DNA of 64,000 bases from Candidatus Latescibacterota bacterium. GTDB lineage: Bacteria; Latescibacterota; CBDEFO01. A program made the position numbers and the translations under genes. The notes under the pieces were generated by a model that was not told where the DNA came from, did not search any database, and saw nothing but the letters and a program-made list of their open reading frames with translations. The DNA is taken from NCBI GenBank assembly GCA_965248755.1, contig OZ252149.1, positions 4,096,001 through 4,160,000 on the forward strand. Direction: 5' to 3'. This document shows positions 3,555 through 20,300 of the stretch, in pieces (position 1 is the first letter of the stretch; each line of letters starts with the position of its first letter).

Positions 3555-3563
3555 CCCTCTTTT

Positions 3564-3680
3564 AGTAGACAGTAGTCAGTAGACAGCATACTGGTGCACC
3601 ATCTCCTCTCCCTTCTACTATCCCTAAAGTGGGGATGAGCAGGGTTACCCTGTCTACTGTCTACTGTTTGCTGTCTACTG
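3564..3680. repeat. Family B intergenic element (second full copy)
   Basis: Same organisation and high similarity to 2905-3013. Confidence 0.9.
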
Positions 3681-3682
3681 AT

Positions 3683-4195: not shown

Positions 4196-4282
4196 TAATT
4201 GCCCTCCCAGGGTTCGATGGGGCAAAACCTACAACTCTGCCCTATCACACCAGCTTCAACGTTGGCTCGGATGCCTTGCAGA

Positions 4283-4564
4283 TCATCCTCCTGCAGCCGT
4301 GGCTTTGATGATCTCTATAACCTGTTCGTAGCTCGGCAGTCGATCCTGCAGGAGGAAGAACATCAAAAGCGAGTAGATGACAAGTGACTCTATCAGAGCC
4401 AATCCGATGATCATCGCAAGCTGAATCCTCCCTGCCGCCTCAGGCTGTCGAGCTATCCCTTCCAACGCTGTCGAGGTGGCCCTTCCCTGGGCTGTTGACG
4501 CTGCAAGAACAGCTATCGGAAGTCCCAGTCCCACTGCGAACGCTAAGACTGCAAAGTAGAGCAT
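4283..4564 (-). CDS. atpE: ATP synthase F0 subunit c
   Basis: ARQPEA loop, IESLVIY carboxylate motif. Confidence 0.97.
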
Positions 4565-4672
4565 CTTTCCCTCCCTGATTTAAAAAGTTTGGTGGTGTAC
4601 ATTGGATTCCTACATATTTCATTACAAATGAGGTTCGAATTTCTCAAAGTTGGCTTTGAGTTACTATAATGT

Positions 4673-4693
4673 CCCCGATTGAATCTATCGGGG
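4673..4693 (+). repeat. Family A 21-bp palindrome CCCCGATTGAATCTATCGGGG
   Basis: Exact consensus. Further copies at 11476, 17508 (nested), 27260, 33958, 35164, 49404, 57202 (nested), 57383, 63302. Confidence 0.95.
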
Positions 4694-4728
4694 CATGCCT
4701 CCTTTCTATCCCTTTGTAATGAATGCTC

Positions 4729-5571
4729 TCAGTGTTCCTCGTGATGTTCGCTTATAAAGGTAGCAAGGTATATCGCTGTCAAAAGTGAAAAGACTAAAGC
4801 CTGGATTAGACTTGAGAAGAGTCCAAAAAGCATCATAGGAAGTTGGAAAGGCACAGGCAGATAGACAGGCAAAACAGTTATCGCAAGAGTTGCAAGGACG
4901 ATTATTATCGTGTCCTCACCAAAGATATTTCCGAATAGTCGGATGGAAAGGGACATAACTTTCGCAAGTTCTCCTATAAGGTGCAGAGGAAACATAAGGG
5001 GACCGAGCCATATAGGTTCTCCCAGAAAGTGCTTGATATATGGGATAAAACCGAGCTCCTTTATGGCTATGACCTGAACTCCTGAGATTGCGACCAGGGC
5101 CATGGCAAGTGTGGTGTTCAAGTCCGCTGTGGGAGATTGGAATCCTGGTATGAGCCCTAATATATTAAGACAGAGTATGAAGATGAAGAACGATCCCATA
5201 AAGGCCGTGTATTTTCTCCCGCGTTCACCTACTATGTCCGTGAAGAAATCCATAAGCCCGCCGACTACCATCTCCATAAAGTTCTGGAGCTTCCCTGCCG
5301 GAAGGGGCTTGAGGTTCCTCGTAGCCAATATAACGAAAATTCCGATCACCAAGATCATAAAATATGTGTTCGGTATGAGGTCGTGTTGTTCTTTCAGATT
5401 CTCTGATATTTCCGCTATAGGACCCCTGTTGAGCATATGGAGCCAGGAGTGATGGTGTTCGTGGCCTTCTTCCTCATGACGTCCTTCAGCTTCGGCAGCC
5501 CAAAGTGGGGTTGTCGCCGCCGCTACGGATAAAGCTATGAGGATAACAAACAGGATCTTCTTAATATTCAA
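4729..5571 (-). CDS. atpB: ATP synthase F0 subunit a with signal-like, His-rich N-terminal extension
   Basis: SLSIRLFGNI (essential Arg), IQALVFSLL; probable TTG start at 5571 overlapping atpI stop. Confidence 0.95.
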   Translation of the reverse strand: MNIKKILFVILIALSVAAATTPLWAAEAEGRHEEEGHEHHHSWLHMLNRGPIAEISENLKEQHDLIPNTYFMILVIGIFVILATRNLKPLPAGKLQNFMEMVVGGLMDFFTDIVGERGRKYTAFMGSFFIFILCLNILGLIPGFQSPTADLNTTLAMALVAISGVQVIAIKELGFIPYIKHFLGEPIWLGPLMFPLHLIGELAKVMSLSIRLFGNIFGEDTIIIVLATLAITVLPVYLPVPFQLPMMLFGLFSSLIQALVFSLLTAIYLATFISEHHEEH

Positions 5572-6017
5572 GGACGTTCCTCCCGATTCATCGATCTCGA
5601 ATTCACTGCGTTTACAAGTATTATCCCGAAGGCTTTGAGTATTATGATAGCCTGCACCAATCCCAATCCCACAACCAGAGCTGCTAAGCTCAGCCATTCT
5701 GATCTCATAAGGAAGTAGAAAAGCGTCACTATGAGAGGAAATTTAATCAACGCTGTAATGAGGATCATCGGTTTAGGCTTTTTCTTTTGAGGAGTTATGT
5801 ATTTTTTAATTGCGTATTCCAGAGCCCTTAGAAATATTAGACTGACAGCCGCACCTGTGCTGAAGCTTAAGGCTATTCCTCGTCCTAGGTAAGTCCATAT
5901 CCACAAAAAGGCAAATATCCCCACCCAAATTGACGTGCGATAGACCCTCAGAAGGAAGTTCTTATCTATTTCCAAGGGCTTGAAGTCCTTATGTCCCTTT
6001 ATCCTTATTCTGTGCAT
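5568..6017 (-). CDS. atpI: ATP synthase protein I-like membrane protein
   Basis: Four hydrophobic segments, immediately upstream of atpB; start uncertain. Confidence 0.7.
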   Translation of the reverse strand: MHRIRIKGHKDFKPLEIDKNFLLRVYRTSIWVGIFAFLWIWTYLGRGIALSFSTGAAVSLIFLRALEYAIKKYITPQKKKPKPMILITALIKFPLIVTLFYFLMRSEWLSLAALVVGLGLVQAIIILKAFGIILVNAVNSRSMNREERP

Positions 6018-6237
6018 CTAATTCTTCCAGGTATTTCTTAACCGTCTTGAACATCTGCATAAATCCTGCGGCGATCCCCAGGATCGCTCCGATAAATCCT
6101 CCCCAAGTTTTACTTCCCAAACTTTCGCCTATCCATGCGCCGAGGAAATATCCTATAGCTGTGGAGAGGACTAACGTCAGACCTATAGCACTAAGTTCAC
6201 CCGCTAATCTCCATCCTCCCTTTTGATCTATGTTCAT
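5989..6237 (-). CDS. AtpZ/AtpI (gene 1) family protein
   Basis: Two TMs with IGYFLG.WI..LG and GAILGIAAGF pattern at the head of the atp genes. Confidence 0.8.
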   Translation of the reverse strand: MNIDQKGGWRLAGELSAIGLTLVLSTAIGYFLGAWIGESLGSKTWGGFIGAILGIAAGFMQMFKTVKKYLEELDAQNKDKGT

Positions 6238-6246: not shown

Positions 6247-7704
6247 CTACATAATAGACAGGGCGGACTGTACGGCTAATTCCAAAAGCCACGAGGGCAT
6301 GATGCCGATTTCGATTACTCCGAGGGCACAAAGCGCAAGGGTCAATGACAAAAGGACTGGAGTAGAGGCTCCAACCGCTGTGGATGGAACTTCCTCAGGT
6401 TCACTCATATACATTACTACCACAACTCTCAGGTAGTAGTAAACTGAGATGACGCTATTTACAACAGCGACGATGACCAGTCCTGTAAATCCTGCCTTTA
6501 TTGCCGCTCTGAAGATATAGAACTTCCCTATAAATCCTGCTGTCGGAGGAAATCCCGCAAGCGACATCATAAAAAGGGTCATCAAAAGGGCGACCACGGG
6601 GCGTTTAAATCCGAGACCTGAATACGAGTCAAAGGTGAGGTTCTCTGCTCCTTCTCTTCCCATCATTATCAGGATTCCGAACGCCCCTATATTCATAAGC
6701 GTATAGACTAAAAGGTAGAAGATAAGACTTGAAACGCCCTCCTCTGCCGACGCCACGAGCGCTACCAAAGCATATCCTGCGTGGGCGATGCTCGAATAAG
6801 CCAACATCCTTTTTATATTGTTCTGCGATATGGCTATTACATTTCCCACGGTCATTGTCAATGCGGCGATGACCCACACTATCGCGATCCACTCACCTTG
6901 CATCGCCTCGAACGTAAGCACAAATACCCTCAAAAGGGCGGCGAATCCTGCGGCTTTAGGGCCTGCGGATATAAAAGCCGTGATCGCCGTGGGAGCGCCC
7001 TCATAGACATCCGGAACCCACATGTGAAACGGTACGAGGGCTATCTTAAACCCCAGACCGACGAGGATTAAAAAGCCTCCAACTAAAAGGAGCGGAGATT
7101 CTGCCGCCGTAGTGCTCGATATGTAATCGGTTATGCCCACAAGGTTTGTAGTCCCGCACCCGCCGTAGACGAGAGCCATTCCGTATAATAAGAATCCCGT
7201 GGCAAAGGCCCCCAAAAGAAAATATTTCAGTGCTGCCTCGTTGGAGGCAGGTTCGCGCCTCATGAACCCTGCTAGAATATACTGAGAAATGGACAAAAGT
7301 TCAAGCCCTAAAAAGATCATGATTAAATCCGTCCCCGCAGCTAACAACATCATCCCGACCGTTGCCAAAAGCAGAAGGATGTAATATTCAGCTTTGTCTA
7401 TCTTTTCCCTCTTGACGTAGGTGAGGGAAATCCCAATAGTAAGTGCCGTCCCGATGAGGAATATGATATTGAAGAAGATGGTGTAGTTGTCCAGAGCGAC
7501 CATATTGCTGAAGGATATGTCCTGACTCCCCCACAGTCTGATGGACTGAAAGATAGCCAACATAATCCCTACAAAGCTGAGCAGGGCCGCCTTGCTTCCC
7601 CTCGGAGAGATCATATCTGCGATCATCGCCACAAGAGCCGTGCCCGTAACTATTAGTGCGGGCGAGATGATCGTCCAGTTCATGTCCGGTATGGAGACGT
7701 CCAT
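6247..7704 (-). CDS. nuoN: NADH-quinone oxidoreductase subunit N
   Basis: EAALKYF, FKIALVPFHMWVPDVYEGAP, KRMLAYSSIAHAG. Start at 7704, or at 7746 reading through a heptamer repeat. Confidence 0.97.
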   Translation of the reverse strand: MDVSIPDMNWTIISPALIVTGTALVAMIADMISPRGSKAALLSFVGIMLAIFQSIRLWGSQDISFSNMVALDNYTIFFNIIFLIGTALTIGISLTYVKREKIDKAEYYILLLLATVGMMLLAAGTDLIMIFLGLELLSISQYILAGFMRREPASNEAALKYFLLGAFATGFLLYGMALVYGGCGTTNLVGITDYISSTTAAESPLLLVGGFLILVGLGFKIALVPFHMWVPDVYEGAPTAITAFISAGPKAAGFAALLRVFVLTFEAMQGEWIAIVWVIAALTMTVGNVIAISQNNIKRMLAYSSIAHAGYALVALVASAEEGVSSLIFYLLVYTLMNIGAFGILIMMGREGAENLTFDSYSGLGFKRPVVALLMTLFMMSLAGFPPTAGFIGKFYIFRAAIKAGFTGLVIVAVVNSVISVYYYLRVVVVMYMSEPEEVPSTAVGASTPVLLSLTLALCALGVIEIGIMPSWLLELAVQSALSIM

Positions 7705-7709
7705 AAGCA

Positions 7710-7739
7710 AGTAGACAGTAGACAGTAGACAGTAGACAG
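7710..7739. repeat. Tandem heptamer (AGTAGAC)x4, family B end
   Basis: AGTAGACAGTAGACAGTAGACAGTAGACAG directly upstream of nuoN. Confidence 0.95.
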
Positions 7740-7782
7740 GGCACATCCTTCCCCCTATCTACTACCTATTTGTTTGTTTCCC

Positions 7783-9228
7783 TTAGAAAAAGACGAATGT
7801 AACTACTACAAACAGGGGCATCAAAATCATAACGGAGTAGAGCATAAATCCGAAGAAGCTCGGCATCTTTATTCCGTTTTCCTCTGCGATGGATCTAACC
7901 ATAAAGTTCGGAGCGTTGCCAATATAAGTTGTTGCTCCCATAAAGACTGCACCCGCAGATATAGCTTTGAGGTATATCTCCTGCCGTTCAATGAGCAATT
8001 GCACAGCCTCAAGTTCAGGTATTCCAGGAAAGAAGTTTCCCAAAGCCGTATTCAAGAACGTCAGATAAGTGGGCGCATTATCCAGGAAGCTTGAAAGTAT
8101 CCCCGTAATCCAGAAGTAGTGCCACGGTTCTGTAACCGCCTGTATAAGAGACCCCAGTGCTCCCTCTGTCCCAGCCTTTAATATGGCAAGAGCGGGGATT
8201 ATGCACATAAATATGCCAGCAAATAGATACGCCACCTCTTTTATGGGGAACCACGTAAATCCATTGGCGACTCTGAGTTCTTTCGACGTGAACCTAAGAG
8301 ATAAAAGCCCCATAACTATCAGCGTTATGTCCCTTGCGATATTCTGGATTCCCACGTGGACTCCCGCCAGAGTCACAGCCCCGGGTCTCCACAGGCCACT
8401 CATCAAGACTCCACCTATCACTCCGAAAAGGAATATAAAGTTGTAAAGCCCTTCGATTCTCAGAGGTTTCTTCTCGACTTTTTCTTCTACTTCTATATCC
8501 GTAGGATTAGGTCTTTCGCGTGCATATAGAACACTGTCAATCATATAAAACAATATCAGAAGTAGGATACTGACGAACGCCATGTGCGGGAATAAGTTGA
8601 AAGTCCAGAAAAAGTCGACCCCGTGGAGAAATCCCAAGAATAGGGGTGGATCGCCCAGTGGAGTCAATGATCCTCCTATGTTGCTGACCAGGAATATGAA
8701 GAATACCACAATGTGCAACTTGCTCCTTCTGTGTTCGTTAGCCCTTATAATAGGTCTAATAAGGAGCATTGACGCCCCTGTAGTGCCTACCCAGGACGCT
8801 ATTATTGTGCCTATGAGCAGAATCGTCGTGTTGACGATGGGAGTCCCCTTTAGAGTGCCGCTCACAAGTATCCCGCTGGAGACCGTAAAGAGCGCCCATA
8901 AGAGTATAATAAAGGGTATGTAATCGATTATGTATATATGCAGTATTTCCTGCAGAGCTTCGCCTCCGTAAGCAGCCGTAAAGGGAATGGCAAATATCAA
9001 AGCCCACGCGGCGGAGATCTTTCCGAAATGATGATGCCAGAATATCGGAGCCGCAAGGGGAAAGATAGCGATAGAAAGCAGTAAGCCGACAAAGGGAATG
9101 AGAGACCACAGAGGCAAGACCTTTCCGAGTACAGCTCCAGTGTGATCTTGCCCCTGGCCACTGCTCGCCCCACACGCCACGGGGAGGATCAGAGCAAGTA
9201 CAGCAAGGAACAGAATAAGCCAGCCCAT
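7783..9228 (-). CDS. IT-superfamily ion transporter (putative Na+/H+ antiporter, NhaD/CitMHS-like)
   Basis: About 12 TMs, SNIGGSLTPLGDPPLFLG, SSFLDNAPTY, YIGNAPNF. Likely start 9228; the ORF extension to 9411 mostly reads through a repeat. Confidence 0.85.
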   Translation of the reverse strand: MGWLILFLAVLALILPVACGASSGQGQDHTGAVLGKVLPLWSLIPFVGLLLSIAIFPLAAPIFWHHHFGKISAAWALIFAIPFTAAYGGEALQEILHIYIIDYIPFIILLWALFTVSSGILVSGTLKGTPIVNTTILLIGTIIASWVGTTGASMLLIRPIIRANEHRRSKLHIVVFFIFLVSNIGGSLTPLGDPPLFLGFLHGVDFFWTFNLFPHMAFVSILLLILFYMIDSVLYARERPNPTDIEVEEKVEKKPLRIEGLYNFIFLFGVIGGVLMSGLWRPGAVTLAGVHVGIQNIARDITLIVMGLLSLRFTSKELRVANGFTWFPIKEVAYLFAGIFMCIIPALAILKAGTEGALGSLIQAVTEPWHYFWITGILSSFLDNAPTYLTFLNTALGNFFPGIPELEAVQLLIERQEIYLKAISAGAVFMGATTYIGNAPNFMVRSIAEENGIKMPSFFGFMLYSVMILMPLFVVVTFVFF

Positions 9229-9262
9229 TGGACGCCACCGCCCGTTCGCATGAGCCCTCTTA

Positions 9263-9390
9263 AGTAGACGGGGACATCTTATCTCTGTGCTTGAGATAGC
9301 TTCAGGGGATTTCACCTCCCTTGCAATTACAATGCCAGTCCTTTGGTCATTGTGAGCAGAAGGAAGCAATCTCCCTGTATGCTGTCTACT
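9263..9390. repeat. Composite B+C intergenic element
   Basis: AGTAGAC...GAGATAGCTTC...CTTGCAATTAC...GTCATTGTGAG...GAAGCAATCTC...CTGTCTACT. Confidence 0.8.
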
Positions 9391-9407
9391 ATTTTGGATC
9401 TCTGTAA

Positions 9408-10967
9408 TCATTTCGATTCGATACTTGAAACCGTGTCCTGGATCGGATCTCTATAGTCCGCATAGGCACTCTTTTCTATTCTGACCTGGTGTAGAACGTG
9501 CTCCACAGAGTGCTCCATTTTGCTCAAGAAGGGTCTGGGATAGACCCCTATGAATATGATCAAGAGGACTATGGGCGCAAGCACAAATATCTCTCTTATG
9601 TTGACGTCTTTCAATCTCCTGTTCTCCTCTTTTGTGATCCCTCCGAACATCACTCTCTGGAACATCCAGAGCATGTAGACAGCAGCGAAAATGAGCCCCG
9701 ACGTGGCGATTACGGCGTATACAATTGCTCCGTCGTTCGCTGAGACGAACGTTCCCAGGAGGATCAGGAACTCCCCGACAAAGCCGTTGAGTCCGGGAAG
9801 CCCTATCGAAGACAGCGTAAATATCAAAAAGAACGAGGCAAATATCGGCATCTGCCTTGAGAGTCCGCCGAACTCCGAGATCAGCCTGGTGTGTCTTCTA
9901 TCGTAGATCATGCCGACGATCAGAAATAGCGCACCTGTGCTCAAGCCGTGATTTATCATCTGAAGTATCCCGCCTGACATCCCCTCAGGCGTGAAGGCAA
10001 ATATCCCTAACATCACAAACCCCAGATGGCTGACGCTCGAATACGCAACTAACTTTTTGAGGTCCTTTTGCATCATCGCCACGAGTGCCCCATAGATTAT
10101 GCCGATGAGAGAAAGGACACATATCAACGGCGTAAAGTGAAAAGACGCTTCGGGAAAGAGGGGCAGGCAGAATCTTATGAATCCGTAAGTCCCCATCTTA
10201 AGCAGCACCCCGGCTAATATCACGCTTCCTGCAGTCGGAGCCTCCACATGGGCGTCAGGAAGCCATGTATGCAGAGGAAATAGGGGAACTTTGATGGCAA
10301 AAGCCAGTGCAAAGGCCAGAAAGAGCCAGTACTGGGTGTTCTTTGAAAGGGGCGTGGCGTAGAGACTCAAAAGGTCGAATGTGTATTGCCCTGTAGCCGT
10401 GTGATTTGCAAAATAGAGCGCAAGGATAGCGACCAACATTAGGGCGCTTCCGGCCATCGTGAAGAGCACGAACTTCATAGCCGCGTAGATTCTCCTTTCG
10501 TGTCCCCAGATCCCTATGATAAAGTACATAGGGATAAGCATCGCCTCCCAGAAGACGAAGAATAAGAACATGTCTAAGGCGCAAAAGACGCCGAGCATCC
10601 CCGCCTCTAAAAGCAGAAGTGAGGCGAAGAAGCCCCTTGTGCTCCTCTGTATAGCCGTCCACGATGCCAGAATGCATATAGGTGTGAGAAATGTAGTTAT
10701 AAGGACCAGAAAGAGACTTATTCCATCTATGCCGAGGTAATAGTTGATGCCGAGTTCTCCTATCCATTCGGACTTCTGGACGAACTGCATGAGGTGTGTG
10801 TCGGGATCGAATTTGAAGAACAGATACAGCGATCCGATAAACTCTACTGTTGAAAAGATGAGGGCGAGCAACCTTATGGCCCCTGCGTTTTCAGCCTTCA
10901 AAAGGGCTAATATAATAGCTCCTGCAAGGGGAAAGAATATGACGAATGTCAGTATCGGAAATTCCAT
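9408..10967 (-). CDS. nuoM: NADH-quinone oxidoreductase subunit M
   Basis: FWEAMLIPMY, KVPLFPLHTWLPDAHVEAP, LLKMGTYG, DLKKLVAYSSVSH. Confidence 0.98.
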   Translation of the reverse strand: MEFPILTFVIFFPLAGAIILALLKAENAGAIRLLALIFSTVEFIGSLYLFFKFDPDTHLMQFVQKSEWIGELGINYYLGIDGISLFLVLITTFLTPICILASWTAIQRSTRGFFASLLLLEAGMLGVFCALDMFLFFVFWEAMLIPMYFIIGIWGHERRIYAAMKFVLFTMAGSALMLVAILALYFANHTATGQYTFDLLSLYATPLSKNTQYWLFLAFALAFAIKVPLFPLHTWLPDAHVEAPTAGSVILAGVLLKMGTYGFIRFCLPLFPEASFHFTPLICVLSLIGIIYGALVAMMQKDLKKLVAYSSVSHLGFVMLGIFAFTPEGMSGGILQMINHGLSTGALFLIVGMIYDRRHTRLISEFGGLSRQMPIFASFFLIFTLSSIGLPGLNGFVGEFLILLGTFVSANDGAIVYAVIATSGLIFAAVYMLWMFQRVMFGGITKEENRRLKDVNIREIFVLAPIVLLIIFIGVYPRPFLSKMEHSVEHVLHQVRIEKSAYADYRDPIQDTVSSIESK

Positions 10968-10971
10968 TTAT

Positions 10972-11458
10972 CTATTCGCTGCCTTCTGATAACTTCCTTT
11001 CGAGGGCTTCTTCTCTATTGGCAACCTGTTTAATCTGTTCTCTAAGTAACTAAAATTGACCCCTAAACTCCTCTCTGAGATTCTCTTGAGATCTGGCTTC
11101 TTTGACGTTTCTGGAGATCTTAAAAGTTATAGCTAAAATAGCTACAAATAGGACAAGGACACCTAATCCTCCGAAAAGCCCCATCATAGTCGAACTAATA
11201 TCATCCACTCTTTTTTCAATCTCTGCTAATCCCCCTTGAAGGTTTGAGCTCCTCGATTCTAGGCTGACCATGCGTTCTTCCAGTGCGGTTAGACGCTCAT
11301 CATATACGTTTGTCCATACCCCTCAACTTCACCATCACGTCATTGAGCGTGTATTTGGATGATTCCTGTGCATAGACAGGAGCTATACACAAAAGACACG
11401 TTACTTAGGAAGATAGCAACTTTAATAGGAAGATAGCAACTTTTAGAGGTATTCTCAT
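10972..11458 (-). pseudogene. Disrupted signal-peptide / coiled-coil / TM protein
   Basis: MRIPLKVAIFL.. then VTCLLCIAPVYA-QESSKYTLNDVMVKL.. then YDERLTALEERMVSLE..GQF*LLREQIKQVANREEALERKLSEGSE*. Lesions: 20-bp tandem duplication at 11406-11443, frameshift near 11303, in-frame TAG at 11050. Confidence 0.7.
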
Positions 11459-11522
11459 TTCTCCCAACTTTCTGCCCCCGATTGAATCTATCGGGGGCTA
11501 CTGTATGCCTGTTATGCCCTAC

Positions 11523-13397
11523 CTATCTCAGAAAGTAGTATCCAAGTATTACGACTGTTCCCAGGACCATGGCGAGGGCGTAGTTTTGTATATAGCCCGA
11601 CTGCACTCGTTTCAGGACAGCGCTAAAGCCTCTTACAAAAAGTCCCACTCCGTTGACTATGCCGTCTATTATCCACATGTCAAACACGTTCGCAAGGAAG
11701 GTCGCAAATCCCCTGAAAGGGGCCAAGATGAGTGCATTGTATATTTCGTCCACGTAGTATTTGTTGGCCACAAGGATATACAGATCTCCCGCTCTATCGG
11801 CGATCTCCTCCGGCTTGATATAGCGTTTGATATAGATTATGTATGCCAGACCTATTCCCGCAAGTGCAAGGAGAACCGATATGGCAATAAGTGCCCCTTC
11901 AGAAAGCAGGGCAAACCCAGCACCCACTTCGGCTTGGGGTACTATTGCTCTCTCCAGAAAACTGTGTAACGGGCTGTGCTCTCCCATTCCGACCCAGCCA
12001 GCGATGACCGAAAATACAGCCAGAATGACCAGAGGGACGGTCATAATACGAGGCGACTCGTGGACGTGCGGTTCAACCTCAGGTTCTACTCTGGACTCTC
12101 CGAAGAAGGTCATAAATATTAGTCTGAACATGTAGAACGCTGTGAGAAACGCTGTAGCCGCACCCAGTGCCCATATCCCTATATTGCCTGAGGCGTACGC
12201 CTTTGATAGGATCTCGTCCTTGCTCCAGAATCCGCTCAAGGGAGGAATCCCCGAGATCGCAAGCGCTCCTATTATGAAAGTCCAGGCCGTAATCTTCATC
12301 TTTGAATAGAGGCCGCCCATCTTTCTCATGTCCAGTTCGTCCGACATAGCGTGCATCACGCTTCCTGCTGTCAGGAACATAAGCCCCTTGAAAAAGGCGT
12401 GCGTCATAAGGTGGAATATCCCGACGGAGTATGCTCCTATTCCCACAGCGATGAACATATATCCCAATTGGCTGACTGTGGAATAGGCCAGGACTCTCTT
12501 TATGTCGTTAGTTGTCAAAGCGATAGTCGCTGCGAATATCGCGGTGAAAGCGCCTATTAGAGCCACTACTTCCATTGAGAAGGGCGCAAGGTTATACAGG
12601 ACGTAAGAACGGGCGACCATGTAGACTCCCGCTGTGACCATCGTGGCGGCGTGTATGAGCGAACTTACGGGCGTTGGACCTTCCATCGCATCGGGCAGCC
12701 ATACGTAGAGAGGAAACTGAGCCGACTTGCCGACTGCGCCCATGAAGAGTAGCAGCGTTATGGCAGTGGCAACTCCTTGTGAGAGTTCCGTCGGAGCTGT
12801 GGAAAAGACGTCCACGAATTTCAGCGTTCCGAGGTGCATAAATATCAAAAAGAGCCCAAGAATAAAACCGAAGTCGCCGATCCTGTTGACTATAAATGCC
12901 TTTTTGCCCGCGTCGGAGGCGGACTTTTTCTCGTACCAAAATCCTATGAGCAGATACGAACAGAGTCCTACAGCCTCCCATCCGACGAACATCAAGAGGT
13001 AGTTGTTGGCAAGTACTAAAACGAGCATCGAAAAGACGAACAGATTCAGATATGTAAAGTATCTTGCGTATCCCCTGTCCCCGCGCATGTAGCCTATCGA
13101 ATAGATGTGTATGCATAGACTCACAGTAGTAACAACAAGGATCATCACTGCCGAAAGTTCGTCGAGCTTGAATCCGACTGTGGCTTCAAAACTTCCTGCC
13201 GCTATCCAACTATAAAGGTCGCCATCGAATACTTTTCCTTTTACCACGTCAAGAAAGGCTTTAATAGAGCAGAGCCAGGACAAGCCAATGGCTACGTTGG
13301 CAATATACGCGCTCTTTTCCCTGAGTTTACTCCCGAAGAGTCCGTTTATAAGAACTCCAGATAGGGGAAATAAGATTATCAATAGGATTAAGTTCAT
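11523..13397 (-). CDS. nuoL: NADH-quinone oxidoreductase subunit L
   Basis: GWEAVGLCSYLLIGFW, KSAQFPLYVWLPDAMEGPTPVS, FHLMTHAFFK. Confidence 0.98.
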   Translation of the reverse strand: MNLILLIILFPLSGVLINGLFGSKLREKSAYIANVAIGLSWLCSIKAFLDVVKGKVFDGDLYSWIAAGSFEATVGFKLDELSAVMILVVTTVSLCIHIYSIGYMRGDRGYARYFTYLNLFVFSMLVLVLANNYLLMFVGWEAVGLCSYLLIGFWYEKKSASDAGKKAFIVNRIGDFGFILGLFLIFMHLGTLKFVDVFSTAPTELSQGVATAITLLLFMGAVGKSAQFPLYVWLPDAMEGPTPVSSLIHAATMVTAGVYMVARSYVLYNLAPFSMEVVALIGAFTAIFAATIALTTNDIKRVLAYSTVSQLGYMFIAVGIGAYSVGIFHLMTHAFFKGLMFLTAGSVMHAMSDELDMRKMGGLYSKMKITAWTFIIGALAISGIPPLSGFWSKDEILSKAYASGNIGIWALGAATAFLTAFYMFRLIFMTFFGESRVEPEVEPHVHESPRIMTVPLVILAVFSVIAGWVGMGEHSPLHSFLERAIVPQAEVGAGFALLSEGALIAISVLLALAGIGLAYIIYIKRYIKPEEIADRAGDLYILVANKYYVDEIYNALILAPFRGFATFLANVFDMWIIDGIVNGVGLFVRGFSAVLKRVQSGYIQNYALAMVLGTVVILGYYFLR

Positions 13398-13463
13398 CTC
13401 AGGCTACCCTTAAATAGTAGACAGCGTACAGGGACGGGAGGAGGTGCCCCCTGTCTACTTGTC

Positions 13464-13766
13464 TTACCATTTCATCAGATTTATCTCATCCACGTTTATG
13501 GTCTCTTTATTTCTATATATAGCTATAATAATGGCGAGTCCGACGGCCACTTCTGCGGCTGCGACGGCCATTATAAAGAATACAAAGACCTGTCCAGAAG
13601 GTGAGTTCAGATATTTAGAAAACGCTATAAAGGCTAAATTTGCTGAGTTCAACATCAACTCCACACACATAAATATTACTATTGCGTTTCTTCTGGTTAG
13701 GACACCGATTACTCCAATTGAAAAGAGCACGCCGGAAAGGAGAAGATAATAGGAAAGCGGTATCAT
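13464..13766 (-). CDS. nuoK: NADH-quinone oxidoreductase subunit K
   Basis: [27 protein letters not shown]. Confidence 0.98.
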
Positions 13767-14509
13767 TTTACCTCCTTCCCCGATGGGCGCTCGCGCTTTG
13801 CAAGGACTACAGCTCCGATGAGTGCTACCAGCAGGATCATGGATGCCACCTCGAACGGCAGTAGATAGTCCGTAAAGAGGAGCTTGCCCATAGTTTCAGC
13901 CGTTCCGATTCCTGTTATCTCGATATAGTTTTCCCACCGTACAAATATCAGATTGTTGGCGTTGACGATCAGTTGAAGAGCACGCGCCCAGGGGAGATTC
14001 TCTATCTCTATCCCTATGGGAGTAGTACGAGCTTTAGGATCAGTGATTGGAATGCTTGCTACCTTCTCTATTATCGTAAGGGCCTCGTTGAAAGGAACAT
14101 CGGGGCTCAAAGACATGAGCTCTTGTCCGATCTCCGAAGGAGGAATCGTAGTCTGCAGATCTTCTAGGGGCGACGCCCATTGTGCGATGCTCCCAAATTC
14201 GGCTATTAAAAGGACGGCGAGTCCTATTCCGACCAAGGACCCGTATTTGAGCCTTTCTCTGCCTGCGTCTGGACGACCTAAATTGAGGAGCATGATCACA
14301 AAGAGAAAAAGAACCATTATCGCCCCGGCGTAGACCAGGACCTGCACAGCCGCTATTAGCTCTGCTCCTAAAAGAAGAAACAATCCCGCCATAAAAAAGA
14401 AGGTCACAACTAATGAAAGGGCGCTGTATAGGGGATTTCGGAATATTACGACGAAAAGGGCGGAGATGAGGGCAATCGTTGCGAAGATGAAAAAAAGTGT
14501 TTCCATCAC
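13763..14509 (-). CDS. nuoJ: NADH-quinone oxidoreductase subunit J with about 75 aa insertion
   Basis: [20 protein letters not shown] and [24 protein letters not shown]; 248 aa against the usual 160-200. Confidence 0.96.
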
Positions 14510-14511
14510 CT

Positions 14512-15528
14512 TTACGAGATCAACATTATGACGGTTCCCGTCACAAATATATTAAGCAGAGCCAGCGGAAGAAATACTTTCCATCCCAGGTTCATCAACT
14601 GGTCGTATCTAAATCTGGGCAGCGTCCACCGCACCCAGATAAACAGGAAAAGAAAGAATCCTGTTTTGATTACGAAGGACAAGAGCTTCAGAATGCTTGG
14701 CAGAAGTGATGTCGAGTCAGGGGATATGATCCAGGGCACGTTCCACCCTCCAAAGAAGAGCGTGACCATAAGGGCAGATGATGTGACCATATTTGCGTAT
14801 TCGGCCATATAGAACATTGTGAACTTCATGCTGCTGTACTCAGTGTGATATCCTGCCACGAGCTCCTGCTCCGCTTCAGCGAGGTCGAAGGGCAATCTAT
14901 TAGTCTCGGCGAACGCTGCGATCATAAAGAGCACAAAACCCAAAGGTTGTGTCAAGACGTTCCATTTCGGGATGAAGCCCCAATATCCCGATTGGAATTC
15001 CACCACGTCGTTGAGCCTCAAAGACCCTGTCATCATAAGGACACCAACTATAGAAAGCCCCAGGGCAAGCTCATAGCTTATCATCTGCGCAGAAGCACGC
15101 AGCCCGCCCAAAAGGGAATATTTGTTGTTGGACGCCCAACCCCCCAGGACAATCCCGTAGACCCCCAGTGAGGTAATAGCCAGTATATAGAGAATGCCTA
15201 CGTTTATATCGGCGATTTGAAGCTTTATGTCTCTTCCGAGCAGGGGGAGAGTATCCCCGAAAGGTATCACGGCAAATGTTATAAGAGCGGGGATCAAGAC
15301 CACCGCAGGAGCCATAACGTATATTACTCGGTCCACGTGATTCGGGATTATGTCCTCCTTAAAGAGGAACTTGAGTCCGTCGGCAACCGGCTGCAATAAT
15401 CCGAATGGACCCACTCTGTTGGGGCCGAGCCTGTCCTGTATGAAACCGCTTATCCTCCGTTCGGCAAGTGACAAATAAGCAACTGTGGTAAGCATAGCTC
15501 CCAGCACTACAACTATCTTGATTGTCAA
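14512..15528 (-). CDS. nuoH: NADH-quinone oxidoreductase subunit H
   Basis: ERRI..IQDRLGPNRVGP, AETNRLPFDLAEAEQELVAGYHTEYS, RFRYDQLM. Confidence 0.98.
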   Translation of the reverse strand: MTIKIVVVLGAMLTTVAYLSLAERRISGFIQDRLGPNRVGPFGLLQPVADGLKFLFKEDIIPNHVDRVIYVMAPAVVLIPALITFAVIPFGDTLPLLGRDIKLQIADINVGILYILAITSLGVYGIVLGGWASNNKYSLLGGLRASAQMISYELALGLSIVGVLMMTGSLRLNDVVEFQSGYWGFIPKWNVLTQPLGFVLFMIAAFAETNRLPFDLAEAEQELVAGYHTEYSSMKFTMFYMAEYANMVTSSALMVTLFFGGWNVPWIISPDSTSLLPSILKLLSFVIKTGFFLFLFIWVRWTLPRFRYDQLMNLGWKVFLPLALLNIFVTGTVIMLIS

Positions 15529-15536
15529 CTCTATTA

Positions 15537-16052
15537 TCAGGGTTCCATCTCCTCAATTTTCCTCAAGGCCTCGGGGACTTCATATAGAGAAGTGACCTTT
15601 GTCGTCGGCTCTGCTTCGGGGCCATCAGCGTCTATAGGGAACCGGTCGTTCCACCTGTGCAATATACATTTGATGCCGTATCGGTTGGCTCCCACGATGT
15701 CCGTATCCACCCTGTCTCCGATCATTACGACTTCGGACGGTTCTAATGTAAGGCGATCCAATGCGACTTGGAATATCCCGGGGTGGGGCTTGTCAGAACC
15801 TACGTCCACAGACGTTATCACGGCTTCAAACTTATCCTTCCAACCCATTATCTCAAGCGCTCTTTGTATATCGGGTTCACGAGATGTGATCGTGTTGCTA
15901 ACAAGGGCGAGTCTATATCTTCCTGACAGGTATTCGATAAGCTCGTCTGCGCCCTCTACCTTCAAGAAGACATCCTTTTGCCATATCGATAGGCCGCTGT
16001 CATCCTCGGCCATCAATGTATCTCCGAAGTCGAAAAATATTGCCTTGATCAT
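15537..16052 (-). CDS. HAD-superfamily hydrolase
   Basis: Motif I FFDFGDTL, VSNT, DKPHP, IGDRVDTD; likely start 16052. Confidence 0.9.
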   Translation of the reverse strand: MIKAIFFDFGDTLMAEDDSGLSIWQKDVFLKVEGADELIEYLSGRYRLALVSNTITSREPDIQRALEIMGWKDKFEAVITSVDVGSDKPHPGIFQVALDRLTLEPSEVVMIGDRVDTDIVGANRYGIKCILHRWNDRFPIDADGPEAEPTTKVTSLYEVPEALRKIEEMEP

Positions 16053-16073
16053 TTTGCCGAATGGGCAAACACC

Positions 16074-16143
16074 GCAGGGCGCTGGCCCGCGTGTGTGTCC
16101 TGAAATATGGATAAATCGGTCGAACACACAGGTTCGCCGCTAC
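16074..16143. repeat. Family D REP-like paired palindrome (GTAG type)
   Basis: ..CCCGCGTGTGTGTCCTG...GGTCGAACACACAGGTTCGCCGCTAC; related copies near 37700, 39612, 63708. Confidence 0.7.
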
Positions 16144-17448
16144 TTATTTAAAGGGGCATCTACCGAGCTTTACGTGCTCGTGGAACTCGTCTTTGAACTT
16201 GAGGACAAATCCAGCCGAAGGCCAGGCAAACGCCGCTCCGAAAGCGCAGACCGTTGTGAAGGGGAGCTTCATAAATCCGCATACGTTTTCCGCTACATCG
16301 ACTATTAAATCCATATCTTTCATCCGGCCATTTCCCTTTTCGATTCTCTCAGCTATGTTTCTTATCCAGGGCGCACCTTCTCTGCACGGAGTACACTGAC
16401 CGCACGACTCGTGAGCATAAAACTTCATAATGTTCAAAAGAGCGTCCACCATACAGACCGTCTCGTCCATCACTATAACTGCACCTGTCCCGATGTGGCT
16501 CATCACAGACCCACCACCCAGCGAAAAGGACTCCGGCGTCATCTCCACATCCAGATCATCGGGTCCCAGTGGCGGATAGGAAGATCCCCCAGGCAGGACA
16601 GCTTTCAGTTCATGCCCGTCCCTTGTACCGCCGGCGTAGCCGTAGATTATGTCCCTTAGAGGAGTGCCCATCTCAAGCTCGTATATCCCCGGTCTTTTTA
16701 CGTGCCCGCTTACGCAGAACACAGATGTCCCTGGCGTCTCTTGTGCACCGATACCCCTGAACCAATCTGCTCCGTTGTTGACTATTTGAGGTACATAGGC
16801 CAGAGTCATCACATTGTTCACCGTGGTGGGACATCCGAATATGCCCCTTTGGGCTGGAAATGGGGGTTTTATTCGTGGGTATGGCCTTTTTCCCTCTAAA
16901 GACTCCATAAGCCCCGTCTCCTCGCCGCAGATGTACGCCCCTGCTCCGAGATGGACGTACATATCCAAGCTGTAATCCGTGCCCAATATGTTTTTGCCCA
17001 GAAATCCCCTTTCGTAGGCCTCTTCTATGCACTTTTCTATCAGCTCTATCGTGTTGAACATCTCCCCGCGTATATAGTAGTAGCAGGTGCTGACCCTCAT
17101 AGCGTAGGATGCGATTATTGAGCCTTCGATAGTAAGGTGAGGATCGCCCTCCATAAGGACTCGGTCCTTGAACGACCCTGGTTCGCTCTCGTCCGCATTT
17201 ACACACAGATAGGAGGGGACCTTGGGCTCTTTGGGCATAAAATTCCATTTTAAGCCGGTCGCAAACCAGGCGCCGCCTCTCCCTTTGAGCTTAGATCTAT
17301 CCACGTCCTCTATGACCTGGTCGGGAGTCATCTTACTCAAAGCCTTTTCGAGGGCTTTGTATCCACCGTGCTCTATATAGACGTCTATATCCTGTATGTT
17401 GGGGACGTCAACATTTTTGAGAAGAATTCTCTTTTCTGGCATATGCAC
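16144..17448 (-). CDS. nuoF: NADH-quinone oxidoreductase subunit F
   Basis: NADESEPG, GAGAYICGEETGL, ESCGQCTPCREG. Confidence 0.97.
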   Translation of the reverse strand: MHMPEKRILLKNVDVPNIQDIDVYIEHGGYKALEKALSKMTPDQVIEDVDRSKLKGRGGAWFATGLKWNFMPKEPKVPSYLCVNADESEPGSFKDRVLMEGDPHLTIEGSIIASYAMRVSTCYYYIRGEMFNTIELIEKCIEEAYERGFLGKNILGTDYSLDMYVHLGAGAYICGEETGLMESLEGKRPYPRIKPPFPAQRGIFGCPTTVNNVMTLAYVPQIVNNGADWFRGIGAQETPGTSVFCVSGHVKRPGIYELEMGTPLRDIIYGYAGGTRDGHELKAVLPGGSSYPPLGPDDLDVEMTPESFSLGGGSVMSHIGTGAVIVMDETVCMVDALLNIMKFYAHESCGQCTPCREGAPWIRNIAERIEKGNGRMKDMDLIVDVAENVCGFMKLPFTTVCAFGAAFAWPSAGFVLKFKDEFHEHVKLGRCPFK

Positions 17449-17467
17449 TAATAGAGTAAATATTAAT

Positions 17468-17680
17468 CAGTAGGGAGGGCGCACTGCCTCTCTTCCCTTG
17501 AGATTGCCCTCGATTGAACCCCCGACAGATTCAATCGGGGGTCGGGGATTGCTTCGGGGGTCTGCTCATCGTAATGACAGAAGCCGAGAACAAAACAATG
17601 TCATTGCGATTCTCCTGAACTGCTATTCAGAGCAGACCAATCTCAGTCAGACTGCCTCTCGGCGTTTGCTGTCTATCTTT
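17468..17680. repeat. Composite B+C element containing a nested pair of family A palindromes
   Basis: GAGATTGC[A with inverted A inside]ATTGCTTCG...CGTAATGAC...TGTCATTGCGA...CAATCTC...GCTGTCTA. Confidence 0.85.
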
Positions 17681-17681
17681 C

Positions 17682-18167
17682 TCATTCCAATTTATCCAGA
17701 ATCCCGTCCACGTTCTCGTCCGTCAGATTCTGGTACAGGTCTTCGTTTACCAGCATCACAGGGGCCGTCCCGCAGGAGGCGAGGCATTCCACTTTTTCTA
17801 TCGAGAACCTCTTATCACCAGTCGTCTCCCCGATCTCCACTCTGAGTTTCTCTTTCAGATGTTGAACTAATGTCCTGGATCCTGTAAGCGCACAGCTTAA
17901 TGTGCTGCACACCCTTATATGATATTTCCCCACGGGCTTCGTTTTGAGCATAGGATAGAAGCTCACCACCGCGGCGACCCTCACAGGAGGTATCTCTAAA
18001 AGATCGGCGACGTACTTTTGAGCTTCTACGGTAAGGTAGCCCCCCATTTCATTTTGCACAACATGGAGGACGGGGATCATAGCGGCCTGTTTGTCGGGGT
18101 ATCTGGATATTATCCTTTGCAGATGTCCCTCAGTTTCCTTGGAGATATCCACTCTGTTCTGCATCAT
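17682..18167 (-). CDS. nuoE: NADH-quinone oxidoreductase subunit E
   Basis: CSTLSC...ECLASCGTAP 2Fe-2S ligands. Confidence 0.97.
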   Translation of the reverse strand: MMQNRVDISKETEGHLQRIISRYPDKQAAMIPVLHVVQNEMGGYLTVEAQKYVADLLEIPPVRVAAVVSFYPMLKTKPVGKYHIRVCSTLSCALTGSRTLVQHLKEKLRVEIGETTGDKRFSIEKVECLASCGTAPVMLVNEDLYQNLTDENVDGILDKLE

Positions 18168-19906
18168 CTATCGAGCTCTCCTGCGATGATGTTGAGACTC
18201 CCAAGGACAGCCACGATGTCTGAGTACATATGTCCTTTGATCATATGAGGGAAGGCTTGATAGTTGATAAAGGACGGGGGTCTTACTCTTACTCTGTAGG
18301 GGAATCCGCTTCCGTCGCTGACTATGTAGAACCCGAGTTCGCCGTTGGGGGATTCTGTGCTGGAGTAGATCTCAGCTTTGGGGGGCTCTATCCCGTGCCC
18401 TGTCATTATAAGTTTGAAGTGGTGAATGAGCGATTCCATCCTGTTATAGACCTCATCCTTTTCGGGGAGTATGACTTTCGCGTCCGGTACTTTGACTGGT
18501 CCGTCGGGTAGATTCTCCATAGCCTGTTTTACTATGTTGTTGCTCTGGATCATCTCCTCCATCCTGACAAGGTAACGGTCGTAGGCGTCGCCGTTGTCGC
18601 CTGTGGGGATCTCAAATTCAAATTCCTCGTAAGAAGAATAGGGTTCGGCTTTTCTTATATCCCATTCAACGCCTGATCCTCTGAGAATGGGTCCTGTAAG
18701 GCTGTAGGATATTGCGTCTTCGGCTGAGATTACGCCTATGCCCTTTGTCCTGTCGATCCATATTCTATTTTTGGTCAAAAGGTCATCTATATCTTTGAGT
18801 CTCTTCGGAAAGTGTCTTGTGAAGTCTTCGACCATCTCCTTGAAGTTCTCAGGGACGTCCTCAAATAGCCCTCCGACTCTCGTATAGCTTGTGGTCAGCC
18901 TCGTACCTGTAACGGCATCAAAGATATCGTAGAGCTTTTCTCTCTCTTTGAAGGCCCACAGAAAGGCCGTAAACGCCCCCAGATCCAGAGCCGCCGTTCC
19001 GAGCCATACTACGTGATCGGATATTCTGGAAAGTTCATAGAGGATGACTCTGATGTATTGGGCTCTTTTGGGCACCTCGATGTCCAAAAGCTTCTCCACA
19101 GCTATCGCATATCCGATGTTATTAGATAGGGGAGACATGTAGTTCATCCTGTCCGTCAAGGTGATGAACTGGTTGTAGTCGAGGTTTTCGCCGAGCTTTT
19201 CGAACCCCGTGTGGAGGTAGCCTATGTCGGGTATAACGTTGACCACCTTTTCTCCGTCCAGTTCGAGGACGAGCCTCAAAGTCCCATGGGTGGCCGGATG
19301 CTGCGGTCCGAAGTTCAACACCATCCTCTCACCGGAGAGCCTGTCGCCTTCGGTCTCCGATTTGCCTGCTATCTTTTCGACTGTGGACATTGAGATTTCA
19401 TCAAATCCGGGATCGGGATTGGCTATCCTGTCCCTTTCCCCCCTGCCTCTTAAGGGATAGTCCTTTCTTAGAGGATAGCCCTCAAAGTCTGAGGGCATCA
19501 GTATCCTTCTTAAGTCCGGATGTCCCTTGAACTTGATCCCGAACATGTCGTAGACTTCCCTTTCGGTCCAGATTGCCCCCATCCATATAGGCAAAACTGA
19601 GTCAAGAGTGGGGTCAGATTCTTCAACGGGAACTTTAACCCTGAGCCTCTGTCCTGTTTTGTAGGAGTAGAGATGATAGACCACGGAGAACCTTGGATGT
19701 CTGTCCATCGCGAGGTAGTCTACGCAGGAGAGGTCCACAAGATAGTCATACTGAAGGTCTGGGTCTTCCTTGAGGAATTTGAGGAGGTCGAAGGATCTCT
19801 GTTTGTTTATGTTTAAAGTGGTCTCATCCCTGAAATCTTCGACTTCAAGCAGAGCGCCGGAAAATCGGGAGTTTATCTTATCTATAGCTGATGTATCGTC
19901 GCCCAT
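18164..19906 (-). CDS. nuoCD: Fused NADH-quinone oxidoreductase subunit C/D
   Basis: C part EREVYDMFGI..HPDLRRILM..PLRKDYP; D part NFGPQHPATHG, GYLHTGFEK, IIAGELDR. Confidence 0.97.
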   Translation of the reverse strand: MGDDTSAIDKINSRFSGALLEVEDFRDETTLNINKQRSFDLLKFLKEDPDLQYDYLVDLSCVDYLAMDRHPRFSVVYHLYSYKTGQRLRVKVPVEESDPTLDSVLPIWMGAIWTEREVYDMFGIKFKGHPDLRRILMPSDFEGYPLRKDYPLRGRGERDRIANPDPGFDEISMSTVEKIAGKSETEGDRLSGERMVLNFGPQHPATHGTLRLVLELDGEKVVNVIPDIGYLHTGFEKLGENLDYNQFITLTDRMNYMSPLSNNIGYAIAVEKLLDIEVPKRAQYIRVILYELSRISDHVVWLGTAALDLGAFTAFLWAFKEREKLYDIFDAVTGTRLTTSYTRVGGLFEDVPENFKEMVEDFTRHFPKRLKDIDDLLTKNRIWIDRTKGIGVISAEDAISYSLTGPILRGSGVEWDIRKAEPYSSYEEFEFEIPTGDNGDAYDRYLVRMEEMIQSNNIVKQAMENLPDGPVKVPDAKVILPEKDEVYNRMESLIHHFKLIMTGHGIEPPKAEIYSSTESPNGELGFYIVSDGSGFPYRVRVRPPSFINYQAFPHMIKGHMYSDIVAVLGSLNIIAGELDR

Positions 19907-19934
19907 AGCATTTCTTGGACAGAACCCAGGAGAC

Positions 19935-20300
19935 CTAATCCCAGTCCAATCCACCTTTTCTCCATACGTACAAAAAGCCGATGAAGAGTACGCCGATAAA
20001 AGCCGCCATCTCTATAAATATAAATGATCCTAGAGGCAGCAGTTTTCTGAAAACTACCGCCCAGGGATATAGAAAGACCACTTCTATATCGAATATGATA
20101 AATATTATGGCGATAAAATAAAATTTCACCGAGAATCTGAGCCTTGCATCTCCAACAGGAGGGACTCCTGATTCGTAAGGTGAAAGCTTAATACTGTCGC
20201 TTTTTCTGGGTCCGAAAAGATAGCTGGTCAGCAGAATAGCAGCGGCAAGGCCGACAGCTATTATCAAAAGCAGAAGTATAGGAAGATAGTCACTTGGCAT
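19935..20300 (-). CDS. nuoA: NADH-quinone oxidoreductase subunit A
   Basis: KLSPYESG, FIIFDIEVVFLYPWA, KGGLDW. Confidence 0.98.
   Translation of the reverse strand: MPSDYLPILLLLIIAVGLAAAILLTSYLFGPRKSDSIKLSPYESGVPPVGDARLRFSVKFYFIAIIFIIFDIEVVFLYPWAVVFRKLLPLGSFIFIEMAAFIGVLFIGFLYVWRKGGLDWD

What the first reader, a model, noticed from the sequence alone, without database searches (positions are those of the whole stretch)
13910..14122. NuoJ carries an inserted secretin-N0/STN-like periplasmic domain
Seen: about 70-75 extra residues between TM4 and the conserved TM5 region: [69 protein letters not shown]. Recognised from memory: the pattern (.PF..AL..I / IGI.IEN.PW..AL..I...NNL.....NYI.I) matches the STN/N0 domain at the N-terminus of PilQ/GspD secretins and TonB-dependent transducers, a protein-docking module. 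This loop faces the periplasm in complex I. Inference: complex I may be physically tethered to a trans-envelope machine or signalling partner (PilP/GspC/FecR/TonB-like). I know of no description of this fusion.
Basis: partly seen in the sequence, partly recalled or inferred. Interest (0 to 1): 0.85.

Follow-up and report, generated by a model that had tools for sequence, protein, structure and literature searches.

The report
Pilus-pore domain copied into complex I
In one bacterial genus, a whole docking domain was copied from the cell's own pilus outer-membrane pore gene into an outward-facing loop of a core subunit of the respiratory proton pump; it is a real, recent, clean case of domain shuffling, most likely carried as a folded passenger, because a sister genome has lost the pilus genes yet keeps the insert.

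Summary
Confirmed and traced to its source. nuoJ (13763-14509, minus) carries a 74-codon in-frame insertion (14128-13907) between TM4 and TM5. It is 86% identical in DNA, without gaps, to the N0 domain of this genome's own type IVa pilus secretin pilQ, with 4- and 5-base microhomologies at the ends. Removing it gives the orthologue loop length (84 vs 83-85). It folds as PilQ-type N0 and occurs in a sister genome and independent assemblies. No other NuoJ-N0 fusion was found among 168 phylum genomes. A model supports binding to the genome's PilP-like domain (0.65 vs 0.00 controls), but this is a textbook pair. Against a tether: the sister genome has deleted pilQ and the PilP-like gene but keeps the insert unchanged, no FecR was found, and this loop takes unrelated large inserts elsewhere (13 of 131). 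Constraint on the insert is only suggestive. A second pilQ fragment sits in unrelated genes of the sister genome. The scan noted a NuoJ insertion in another genome, not this fusion.

The parts
13763..14509 (-). nuoJ, 248 aa, five transmembrane helices, carrying the insert
   Evidence: PF00499 145.4 bits; helices 2-21, 25-45, 49-74, 87-110, 215-238
13907..14128 (-). 74-codon in-frame insert (NuoJ aa 128-201): copy of the N0 domain of this genome's pilQ (donor G000:C1:1134527-1134751, gene 1133671-1134864)
14126..14131 (-). 5' junction: host ATCGGA; CGGA is shared with the donor
13904..13909 (-). 3' junction: second ATCGGA, 222 nt after the first; ATCGG is shared with the donor end
13464..13766 (-). 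nuoK, overlapping the nuoJ stop codon
14512..15528 (-). nuoH, directly upstream of nuoJ
6247..20300 (-). host cluster nuoA, CD, E, F, HAD hydrolase, H, J, K, L, M, CitMHS_2-family transporter, N; followed by atp genes (459-6237)

Best explanation
Origin (shown in outline): in the ancestor of this genus, 222 bases encoding the complete N0 domain of the resident type IVa pilus secretin were copied in frame into the TM4-TM5 loop of nuoJ, with no loss of host sequence. The join used 4-5 bases of microhomology at each end. The molecular route, an illegitimate template switch or SPDIR-like single-strand capture, is inferred. Function (inferred): the domain is a tolerated, self-folding passenger on the periplasmic face of complex I. 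It survives because this loop accepts large inserts, because only an in-frame, compact domain leaves TM5 intact, and because once embedded in a core subunit it is lost only by a precise in-frame deletion. Any selection on it is for staying folded, not for a needed partner. It probably still has a PilP-binding face, which is idle in the lineage that has lost the pilus genes.
For: 86% gap-free DNA identity to the only secretin of the genome. Insert and donor are sisters at 100/97 among 89 N0 rows. Insert-donor pS is 0.256 against 0.092 between G000 and G001 over 20 window genes, so capture predates their split. Exact loop-length restoration and junction microhomology. Permissive loop: 13 of 131 measurable top NuoJ representatives have YAG-PFE distances of 147 or more (up to 384; median 87); among 30 mostly long NuoJ homologues scanned, none had an STN match. 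G001 has a 27.8-kb deletion that fuses pilC codon 113 to a dehydrogenase remnant and removes pilQ and the PilP-like gene, yet its insert is unchanged in protein. In G000 a multi-copy IS interrupts the Ig-repeat gene upstream of the pilQ genes, and the donor N0 has lost an Ala present in 81 of 81 outgroups, so the pilus system looks to be decaying while the insert persists.
Against: The insert has changed no faster in protein than the donor (branches 0.15 vs 0.19) and fits the family profile slightly better (84.9 vs 82.0 bits). Pairwise omega is 0.36-0.46 (p 0.007-0.031 against both copies neutral). The predicted PilP-facing surface is 13 of 16 residues identical to the donor. These fit a selected role as well as selection for folding. 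The G001 deletion may be too recent for decay to show. The insert ends coincide with the domain limits, which could reflect positive selection. No RNA or protein data were available.
Confidence: 0.62

Rival explanations
1. Docking or decoy: the N0 on NuoJ binds the PilP-like C-terminal domain of the 315-aa PilO-like protein encoded just upstream of pilQ. This either parks complex I at pilus assembly sites or titrates PilP away from the secretin and dampens piliation, which could have relaxed selection on the pilus genes.
For: complex prediction score 0.65, best of 3 controls 0.00 (mark reached by 116 of 157 solved complexes and 2 of 215 mismatched pairs; counts hold only roughly because my own alignments were used; runs agree in at least 97% of contacts, partner pLDDT at least 88). 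The interface is insert residues 4-12, 16-17, 20, 23-24, 42, 45, i.e. first strand and first helix, the same face that PilP uses on Neisseria PilQ N0 (PMC3441751, passages). The partner domain resembles PilP by Atlas features (3 clusters with PF04351, score 0.90).
Against: PilP-N0 and GspC-GspD are solved pairs and the alignments were native secretin rows, so the pass shows likeness, not that this copy binds. The partner had no Pfam or PDB sequence match to PilP. G001 lacks the partner and keeps the insert. Differences from the donor are not depleted at the interface (3 of 16 vs 13 of 58). Type IV pili are driven by ATPases (PilB, PilT present), so no need for local proton motive force is evident (established knowledge).
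Confidence: 0.18
2. Exaptation for complex I itself: the domain has become a built-in periplasmic cap that stabilises the NuoJ/K/A/N face or binds another periplasmic or respiratory partner, like an accessory subunit.
For: No amino-acid change in the insert across G000, G001, P0001 and P0003, while the flanks carry 3 replacements and a one-codon indel. K+R falls from 9 to 5 relative to the donor. Other lineages also add large outward domains at this site.
Against: Too few differences for a test (1 synonymous, 0 replacement in 74 codons; the 3' flank also has 0). No partner identified. 'Insert neutral, donor constrained' is not rejected by the pooled counts (P 0.08-0.55), and the branch-level test is borderline (P 0.04-0.10).
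Confidence: 0.17
3. Assembly chimera or artefact joining pilQ reads into nuoJ.
For: In runs X1 and X6 the assembly breaks at 14084-14106, inside a stretch identical between donor and insert.
Against: 31 nucleotide differences from the donor in 222 nt. The fusion is in G001, which lacks the donor. A contig from another study spans both junctions, and no joint skipping the insert was listed.
Confidence: 0.01

Closest known systems
N0 domain of the type IVa pilus secretin PilQ (Neisseria meningitidis, PDB 4AR0/4AV2; PMC3441751)
   Same: Same fold (Foldseek top hit E 4.4e-4, TM 0.74, rmsd 2.2); profile match E 7.2e-6; same predicted PilP face; direct copy of the resident pilQ N0.
   Different: Detached from the secretin ring, one copy per complex I, closed at both ends inside an inner-membrane protein, and kept in a genome without any secretin.
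NuoJ/ND6/Nqo10 of complex I (E. coli 3RKO, 7NYH; T. thermophilus 4HE8)
   Same: PF00499, five TM helices, YAGA and LLPFE motifs, operon context, strong constraint (omega 0.07 between G000 and G001); Foldseek hits are NuoJ/NdhG/ND6 chains.
   Different: TM4-TM5 loop lengthened by 74 residues with a donor-traceable domain; none of the other NuoJ of 168 phylum genomes listed shows it.
[quoted passage not shown]
   Same: Intragenomic heterologous donor, microhomology at both ends; ComEC is present in both genomes.
   Different: The paper gives indels of three to about 100 bp (passages); this insert is 222 bp, and the mechanism cannot be read from sequence.
STN signalling domain of TonB-dependent transducers (FecA, FpvA, PupA/B)
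   Same: Same fold class (Z 8.0-9.0); weak Pfam STN match.
   Different: Ancestry is pilQ, not a transducer; FecR (PF04773) not found in G000 or G001.

Membership tests
NuoJ (complex I subunit J) | PF00499 above the gathering score | tested here: met
   145.4 bits vs 33.2, two stretches
NuoJ (complex I subunit J) | NCBIfam NuoJ equivalog cut-off | tested here: inconclusive
   best 140.8 bits vs 154, match split by the insert
NuoJ (complex I subunit J) | five TM helices, between nuoH/I and nuoK in a nuo cluster | tested here: met
   nuoB, nuoI and nuoG-like genes lie elsewhere in the genome
NuoJ (complex I subunit J) | assembles into an active complex I | not testable with these tools
   only indirect: open frame and omega 0.07
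PilQ-type secretin N0 domain | sequence homology to secretin N0 | tested here: met
   77% aa to own pilQ; family profile hits PilQ chains at E 4.7e-6 to 1.7e-3
PilQ-type secretin N0 domain | N0/STN alpha-beta fold | tested here: met
   isolated insert with family alignment: pLDDT 92.9; 4AR0 top hit. In the whole-protein model the insert was low-confidence and not N0-like (its alignment rows were poorly placed), so folding in context is not shown
PilQ-type secretin N0 domain | binds PilP through first strand and helix | tested here: inconclusive
   model passes (0.65 vs 0.00) at that face, but textbook pair
Secretin (PF00263) | secretin core domain in the same chain | tested here: not met
   no secretin-core match in the NuoJ ORF
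Pfam STN (PF07660) | score above gathering threshold 28.4 | tested here: not met
   17 bits, E 0.0053; 35 of 80 family members match at E up to 0.05
TonB-dependent transducer signalling (STN-FecR) | FecR-type partner in the genome | tested here: not met
   PF04773 found in 0 of 2 genomes, 98% and 96% complete
SPDIR-type microindel | microhomology at both joints to an ectopic donor | tested here: met
   CGGA and ATCGG
SPDIR-type microindel | size three to about 100 bp | tested here: not met
   222 bp vs passage
SPDIR-type microindel | single-strand integration at replication forks, RecA-suppressed | not testable with these tools
   historical event

The most novel reading that the evidence does not exclude
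Complex I in this genus displays a still-active PilP-binding N0 domain on the periplasmic face of the inner membrane. It docks the respiratory pump onto the type IV pilus alignment complex, or acts as a built-in decoy that silenced the pilus and led to its decay (IS insertion in G000, deletion in G001). In addition, pilQ is a recurrent donor of structural modules in this lineage: a second piece of it sits in frame in two unrelated secreted-protein genes of G001.
Probability: 0.15. Interest if true: 0.8.

Novelty: new variant of a known kind. Interest (0 to 1): 0.5.

Why it matters
Domain insertion is usually inferred from ancient, saturated sequences. Here donor, recipient, empty-site length and both junctions are all still readable, in one of the most conserved respiratory subunits. 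It shows that a core complex I subunit can gain a complete protein-docking module in one step, and marks the NuoJ TM4-TM5 loop as a natural site for periplasmic display or tagging. If the domain still binds its PilP-like partner, it would be a first physical link between complex I and a pilus machine, or an endogenous anti-pilus decoy; the pair G000 (partner present) and G001 (partner deleted) makes that directly testable.

Tried and rejected
1. Wider spread of the fusion: not found. A region search of 5.8 billion proteins gave 2 hits among 35 candidates, the fusion and the donor. An N0 profile against longer proteins gave 56 hits among 8000 scored candidates: 54 secretins, 1 fragment without Pfam, 1 this fusion. 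168 phylum genomes gave 27 loci: 24 secretins, 2 fusions, 1 cut at a contig end. 2. A general fragment-capture process: among 3568 called G000 ORFs, the nuoJ-pilQ pair was, by inspection of the printed lists, the only internal, in-frame match between different families. In 132 kb of G001, 11 gaps of 30 nt or more were listed and none traced to a new donor; two of them are the second pilQ piece, split by the aligner. 3. Selective sweep around the insert: 1 difference in 13735-14154, but similarly quiet 400-bp bins occur elsewhere; not claimed. 4. Substitutions avoiding conserved columns: P = 0.13, not significant. 5. Whole-protein model: TM core fine, insert poorly modelled (pLDDT under 50 at 186-197), uninformative on folding in context. 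6. PilP identity of the partner by Pfam or PDB sequence: no match. 7. Polarising synonymous changes: no close DNA outgroup (named secretins are 34-44% identical), so the split of changes between insert and donor rests on branch lengths only. 8. Expression: no RNA holder listed. 9. Relatives of the second recipient gene: 0 of 80 metagenome loci matched outside the pilQ-like piece, so gain in G001 versus loss in G000 is open. 10. Literature: no paper on a NuoJ-secretin fusion or NuoJ loop domains turned up in searches (open-licence PMC and bioRxiv only; supplements not read).

Full report
OBSERVATION. The quoted residues are in the sequence, on the minus strand, inside a 248-aa ORF at 13763-14509. 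Pfam calls it NuoJ (PF00499, 145.4 bits, two stretches). Its neighbours are nuoA, fused nuoCD, nuoE, nuoF, a HAD hydrolase, nuoH, then nuoK, L, M, a CitMHS_2-family transporter, nuoN and the atp genes. nuoB (two copies), nuoI and nuoG-like genes lie elsewhere. A second, plain nuoJ is in a membrane-arm-only cluster near G000:C1:2107100; many genomes of the phylum also have two. The fused copy is therefore the one encoded with the NADH-input genes and beside the ATP synthase genes.

THE DONOR IS IN THE SAME GENOME. The insert matches one other place in G000 at 77% protein identity. In DNA, window 13905-14129 aligns with G000:C1:1134527-1134751 at 194/225 identities, no gaps, E 4e-71. That is the N-terminal domain of a 397-aa secretin (PF00263), the only secretin found in the genome. 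It is the last gene of a cluster with PilC-, PilB- and PilT-like genes (only PilT passes its curated cut-off). Relatives of this secretin from named FCB-group genomes are 34-44% identical and several are annotated PilQ. In a tree of 89 N0 rows, insert and donor are sisters at 100/97 (78 columns, many forks unresolved).

ANATOMY OF THE EVENT. The hexamer ATCGGA stands at both ends, 222 nt apart. The donor shares CGGA at the 5' joint and ATCGG at the 3' joint, and similarity stops sharply outside. The net gain is 74 codons (14128-13907, residues 128-201). The distance from the TM3 YAG motif to the TM5 PFE motif is 158; minus 74 it is 84, and 24 of 24 parsed orthologue-type proteins measure 83-85 (26 of 30 loci parsed, 2 being the second paralogue). 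So nothing of the host was lost. Microhomology at both ends to an ectopic intragenomic donor resembles SPDIR, but the passages I read give three to about 100 bp for SPDIR indels (10.1101/2023.11.22.568220). I therefore say 'works like', not 'is'. ComEC is present in both genomes.

IT IS REAL. G001 (same genus) has the fusion with one synonymous change in the insert. P0001 and P0003 carry it unchanged. Laid contigs: one X5 contig covers 13451-14800 with 30 different letters; X6 contigs bridge each junction; an X8 contig bridges the 5' junction and has no cover at 13823-13916; no joint skipping the insert was listed. X1 may be the source and is not counted.

FOLD AND SIDE. With an alignment of 80 N0 domains the insert models at pLDDT 92.9. 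The top Foldseek hit is the N0 domain of N. meningitidis PilQ (4AR0; E 4.4e-4, TM 0.74). The wide search returns EscC, a phage baseplate protein, anti-sigma STN domains, PilQ, GspD and FpvA at Z 9.0-9.8. The family profile hits only PilQ chains below E 0.002. Pfam STN stays under its cut-off (17 vs 28.4 bits). A whole-protein model gave five TM helices but a low-confidence, non-N0 insert, because the N0 rows aligned poorly; folding in context is therefore inferred. The insert has no hydrophobic segment (maximum 19-residue hydropathy 1.04), and the TM3-4 loop and C-tail are basic. E. coli NuoJ Glu142/Ser145 are described as linked to the periplasmic surface (PMC8357420, passages); matching them to the start of TM5 here rests on my recall of the E. 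coli motif. The loop is periplasmic by these signs.

DISTRIBUTION. An N0 profile over 168 phylum genomes hit 25; of 27 loci, 24 are secretins, 2 are the G000 and G001 fusions, 1 is cut by a contig end. PF00499 passes its cut-off in 94 of the 168, and among the listed matches only these two are split by an insert (one other is split by a stop, 50 weak matches unlisted). Protein searches found no other NuoJ-N0. The loop itself is permissive: of 131 measurable proteins among the best 150 NuoJ representatives, 13 have YAG-PFE distances of 147-384 against a median of 87, with unrelated inserts.

AGE AND SELECTION. Insert versus donor: 13.5 synonymous and 17.5 replacement differences, pS 0.256, omega 0.36-0.46 depending on the transition weighting, p 0.007-0.031 against both copies being neutral. 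G000 versus G001 over 20 window genes: pS 0.092, omega 0.22. The capture is thus older than their split. The 16 replaced residues are not all on the insert side. The insert keeps an Ala present in 81 of 81 outgroups where the donor has Thr, scores 84.9 against 82.0 bits on the outgroup profile, and has the shorter branch (0.15 vs 0.19). Against over-reading: pooled counts do not reject a neutral insert beside a constrained donor (P 0.08-0.55), the branch-level test is borderline (P 0.04-0.10), and differing sites are not significantly in variable columns (P 0.13). Constraint is suggestive only, and a passenger inside a core subunit would also be selected to fold.

PARTNER. PilP binds the first strand and helix of PilQ N0 (PMC3441751, abstract and passages). 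The gene upstream of pilQ encodes a PilO-like membrane protein (my label, by position and shape; no Pfam or NCBIfam match). Its C-terminal domain is conserved upstream of the secretin in 48 of 80 loci. It has no Pfam or PDB sequence match but resembles PilP clusters by Atlas features (0.90). The complex model of this domain with the insert scored 0.65 against 0.00 for the best of 3 controls (mark reached by 116 of 157 solved and 2 of 215 mismatched pairs; rough here, own alignments; at least 97% contact agreement, partner pLDDT at least 88), at the strand-1/helix-1 face. This is a textbook pair folded with native secretin rows, so it shows likeness only. Interface residues are 13 of 16 identical to the donor, no more conserved than the rest (45 of 58).

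THE NATURAL EXPERIMENT. G001 lacks about 27.8 kb (G000 1132070-1159850). The join fuses pilC codon 113 to the tail of a dehydrogenase gene, so this is a deletion in G001. No secretin and no PilP-like domain were found there (96% complete), and FecR was found in neither genome. The insert persists unchanged in protein. In G000 a multi-copy IS at 1145677-1147309 interrupts the Ig-repeat gene upstream of the pilQ genes. The pilus system is being lost while the insert stays, which argues against a needed tether, though the deletion may be recent.

A SECOND PIECE OF pilQ. Two G001 paralogues carry a different pilQ fragment in frame (secretin residues about 315-344; 80 nt at 85% and 89 nt at 80%), also present in P0214 and P0216. 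One of them is the orthologue of window gene 29946-32369, whose G000 copy lacks the 90-93 nt at window about 31385. From recall, this stretch is the secretin's amphipathic helical loop; one passage of PMC10653833 describes that loop but does not map it onto this sequence. Scans for other captures found none. Why pilQ donated twice is unexplained.

VERDICT. A real, recent, genus-restricted capture of a complete PilQ N0 domain into the permissive periplasmic loop of NuoJ. Origin is well supported (about 0.95). For function I put passenger at 0.62, docking or decoy at 0.18, cap or other partner at 0.17, artefact at 0.01. Searches (listings and abstract starts only) returned no description; subscription papers and supplements were not covered. 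Novelty: new variant of a known kind. Interest 0.5.

Noticed in passing
window 31382-31390 (gene 29946-32369, minus); L041:1589-1677 and L040:1591-1670 in G001: Two G001 paralogues of this secreted multi-domain gene carry a 30-31-codon in-frame piece of pilQ (80-85% nt identity) at a domain linker; the G000 copy lacks it, and G001 has lost pilQ itself. Direction (gain or loss) is open.
   Followed up: partly
G001:C3:20411-20419 (L126), equal to G000:C1:1132070/1159850: A 27.8-kb deletion of the type IVa pilus cluster leaves an in-frame chimera of the first 113 codons of pilC and the last 93 of a dehydrogenase.
   Followed up: yes
G000:C1:1145677-1147309 (L131): An IS present in dozens of copies at about 99.9% identity interrupts a large Ig-repeat (intimin/invasin-like domains) gene upstream of the pilQ genes.
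   Followed up: partly
L042:12866-13813 (G000:C1:1134865-1135812): The 315-aa PilO-like protein ends in a PilP-like domain conserved upstream of the secretin in 48 of 80 FCB-group loci, without Pfam match: an apparent PilO-PilP fusion.
   Followed up: partly
window 13406-13466: Short palindromic repeat between nuoK and nuoL with 24 genomic matches at E below 1e-3.
   Followed up: no
window 7783-9411 and 15537-16127: A CitMHS_2-family transporter gene sits between nuoM and nuoN, and a HAD hydrolase sits between nuoF and nuoH where nuoG would be; nuoB, G and I are absent from the cluster.
   Followed up: partly
L043:9525-17931 (G000:C1:2105.5-2114 kb): Second membrane-arm cluster nuoA-H-J-K-(ankyrin repeat gene)-L-M-N with a plain nuoJ.
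   Followed up: partly
proteins P0045, P0062, P0075, P0082, P0133 (446-469 aa), P0090 (410 aa), P0085, P0098, P0122: Other NuoJ homologues carry 130-300-residue inserts without Pfam match in the same TM4-TM5 loop; five of them look like one family.
   Followed up: no
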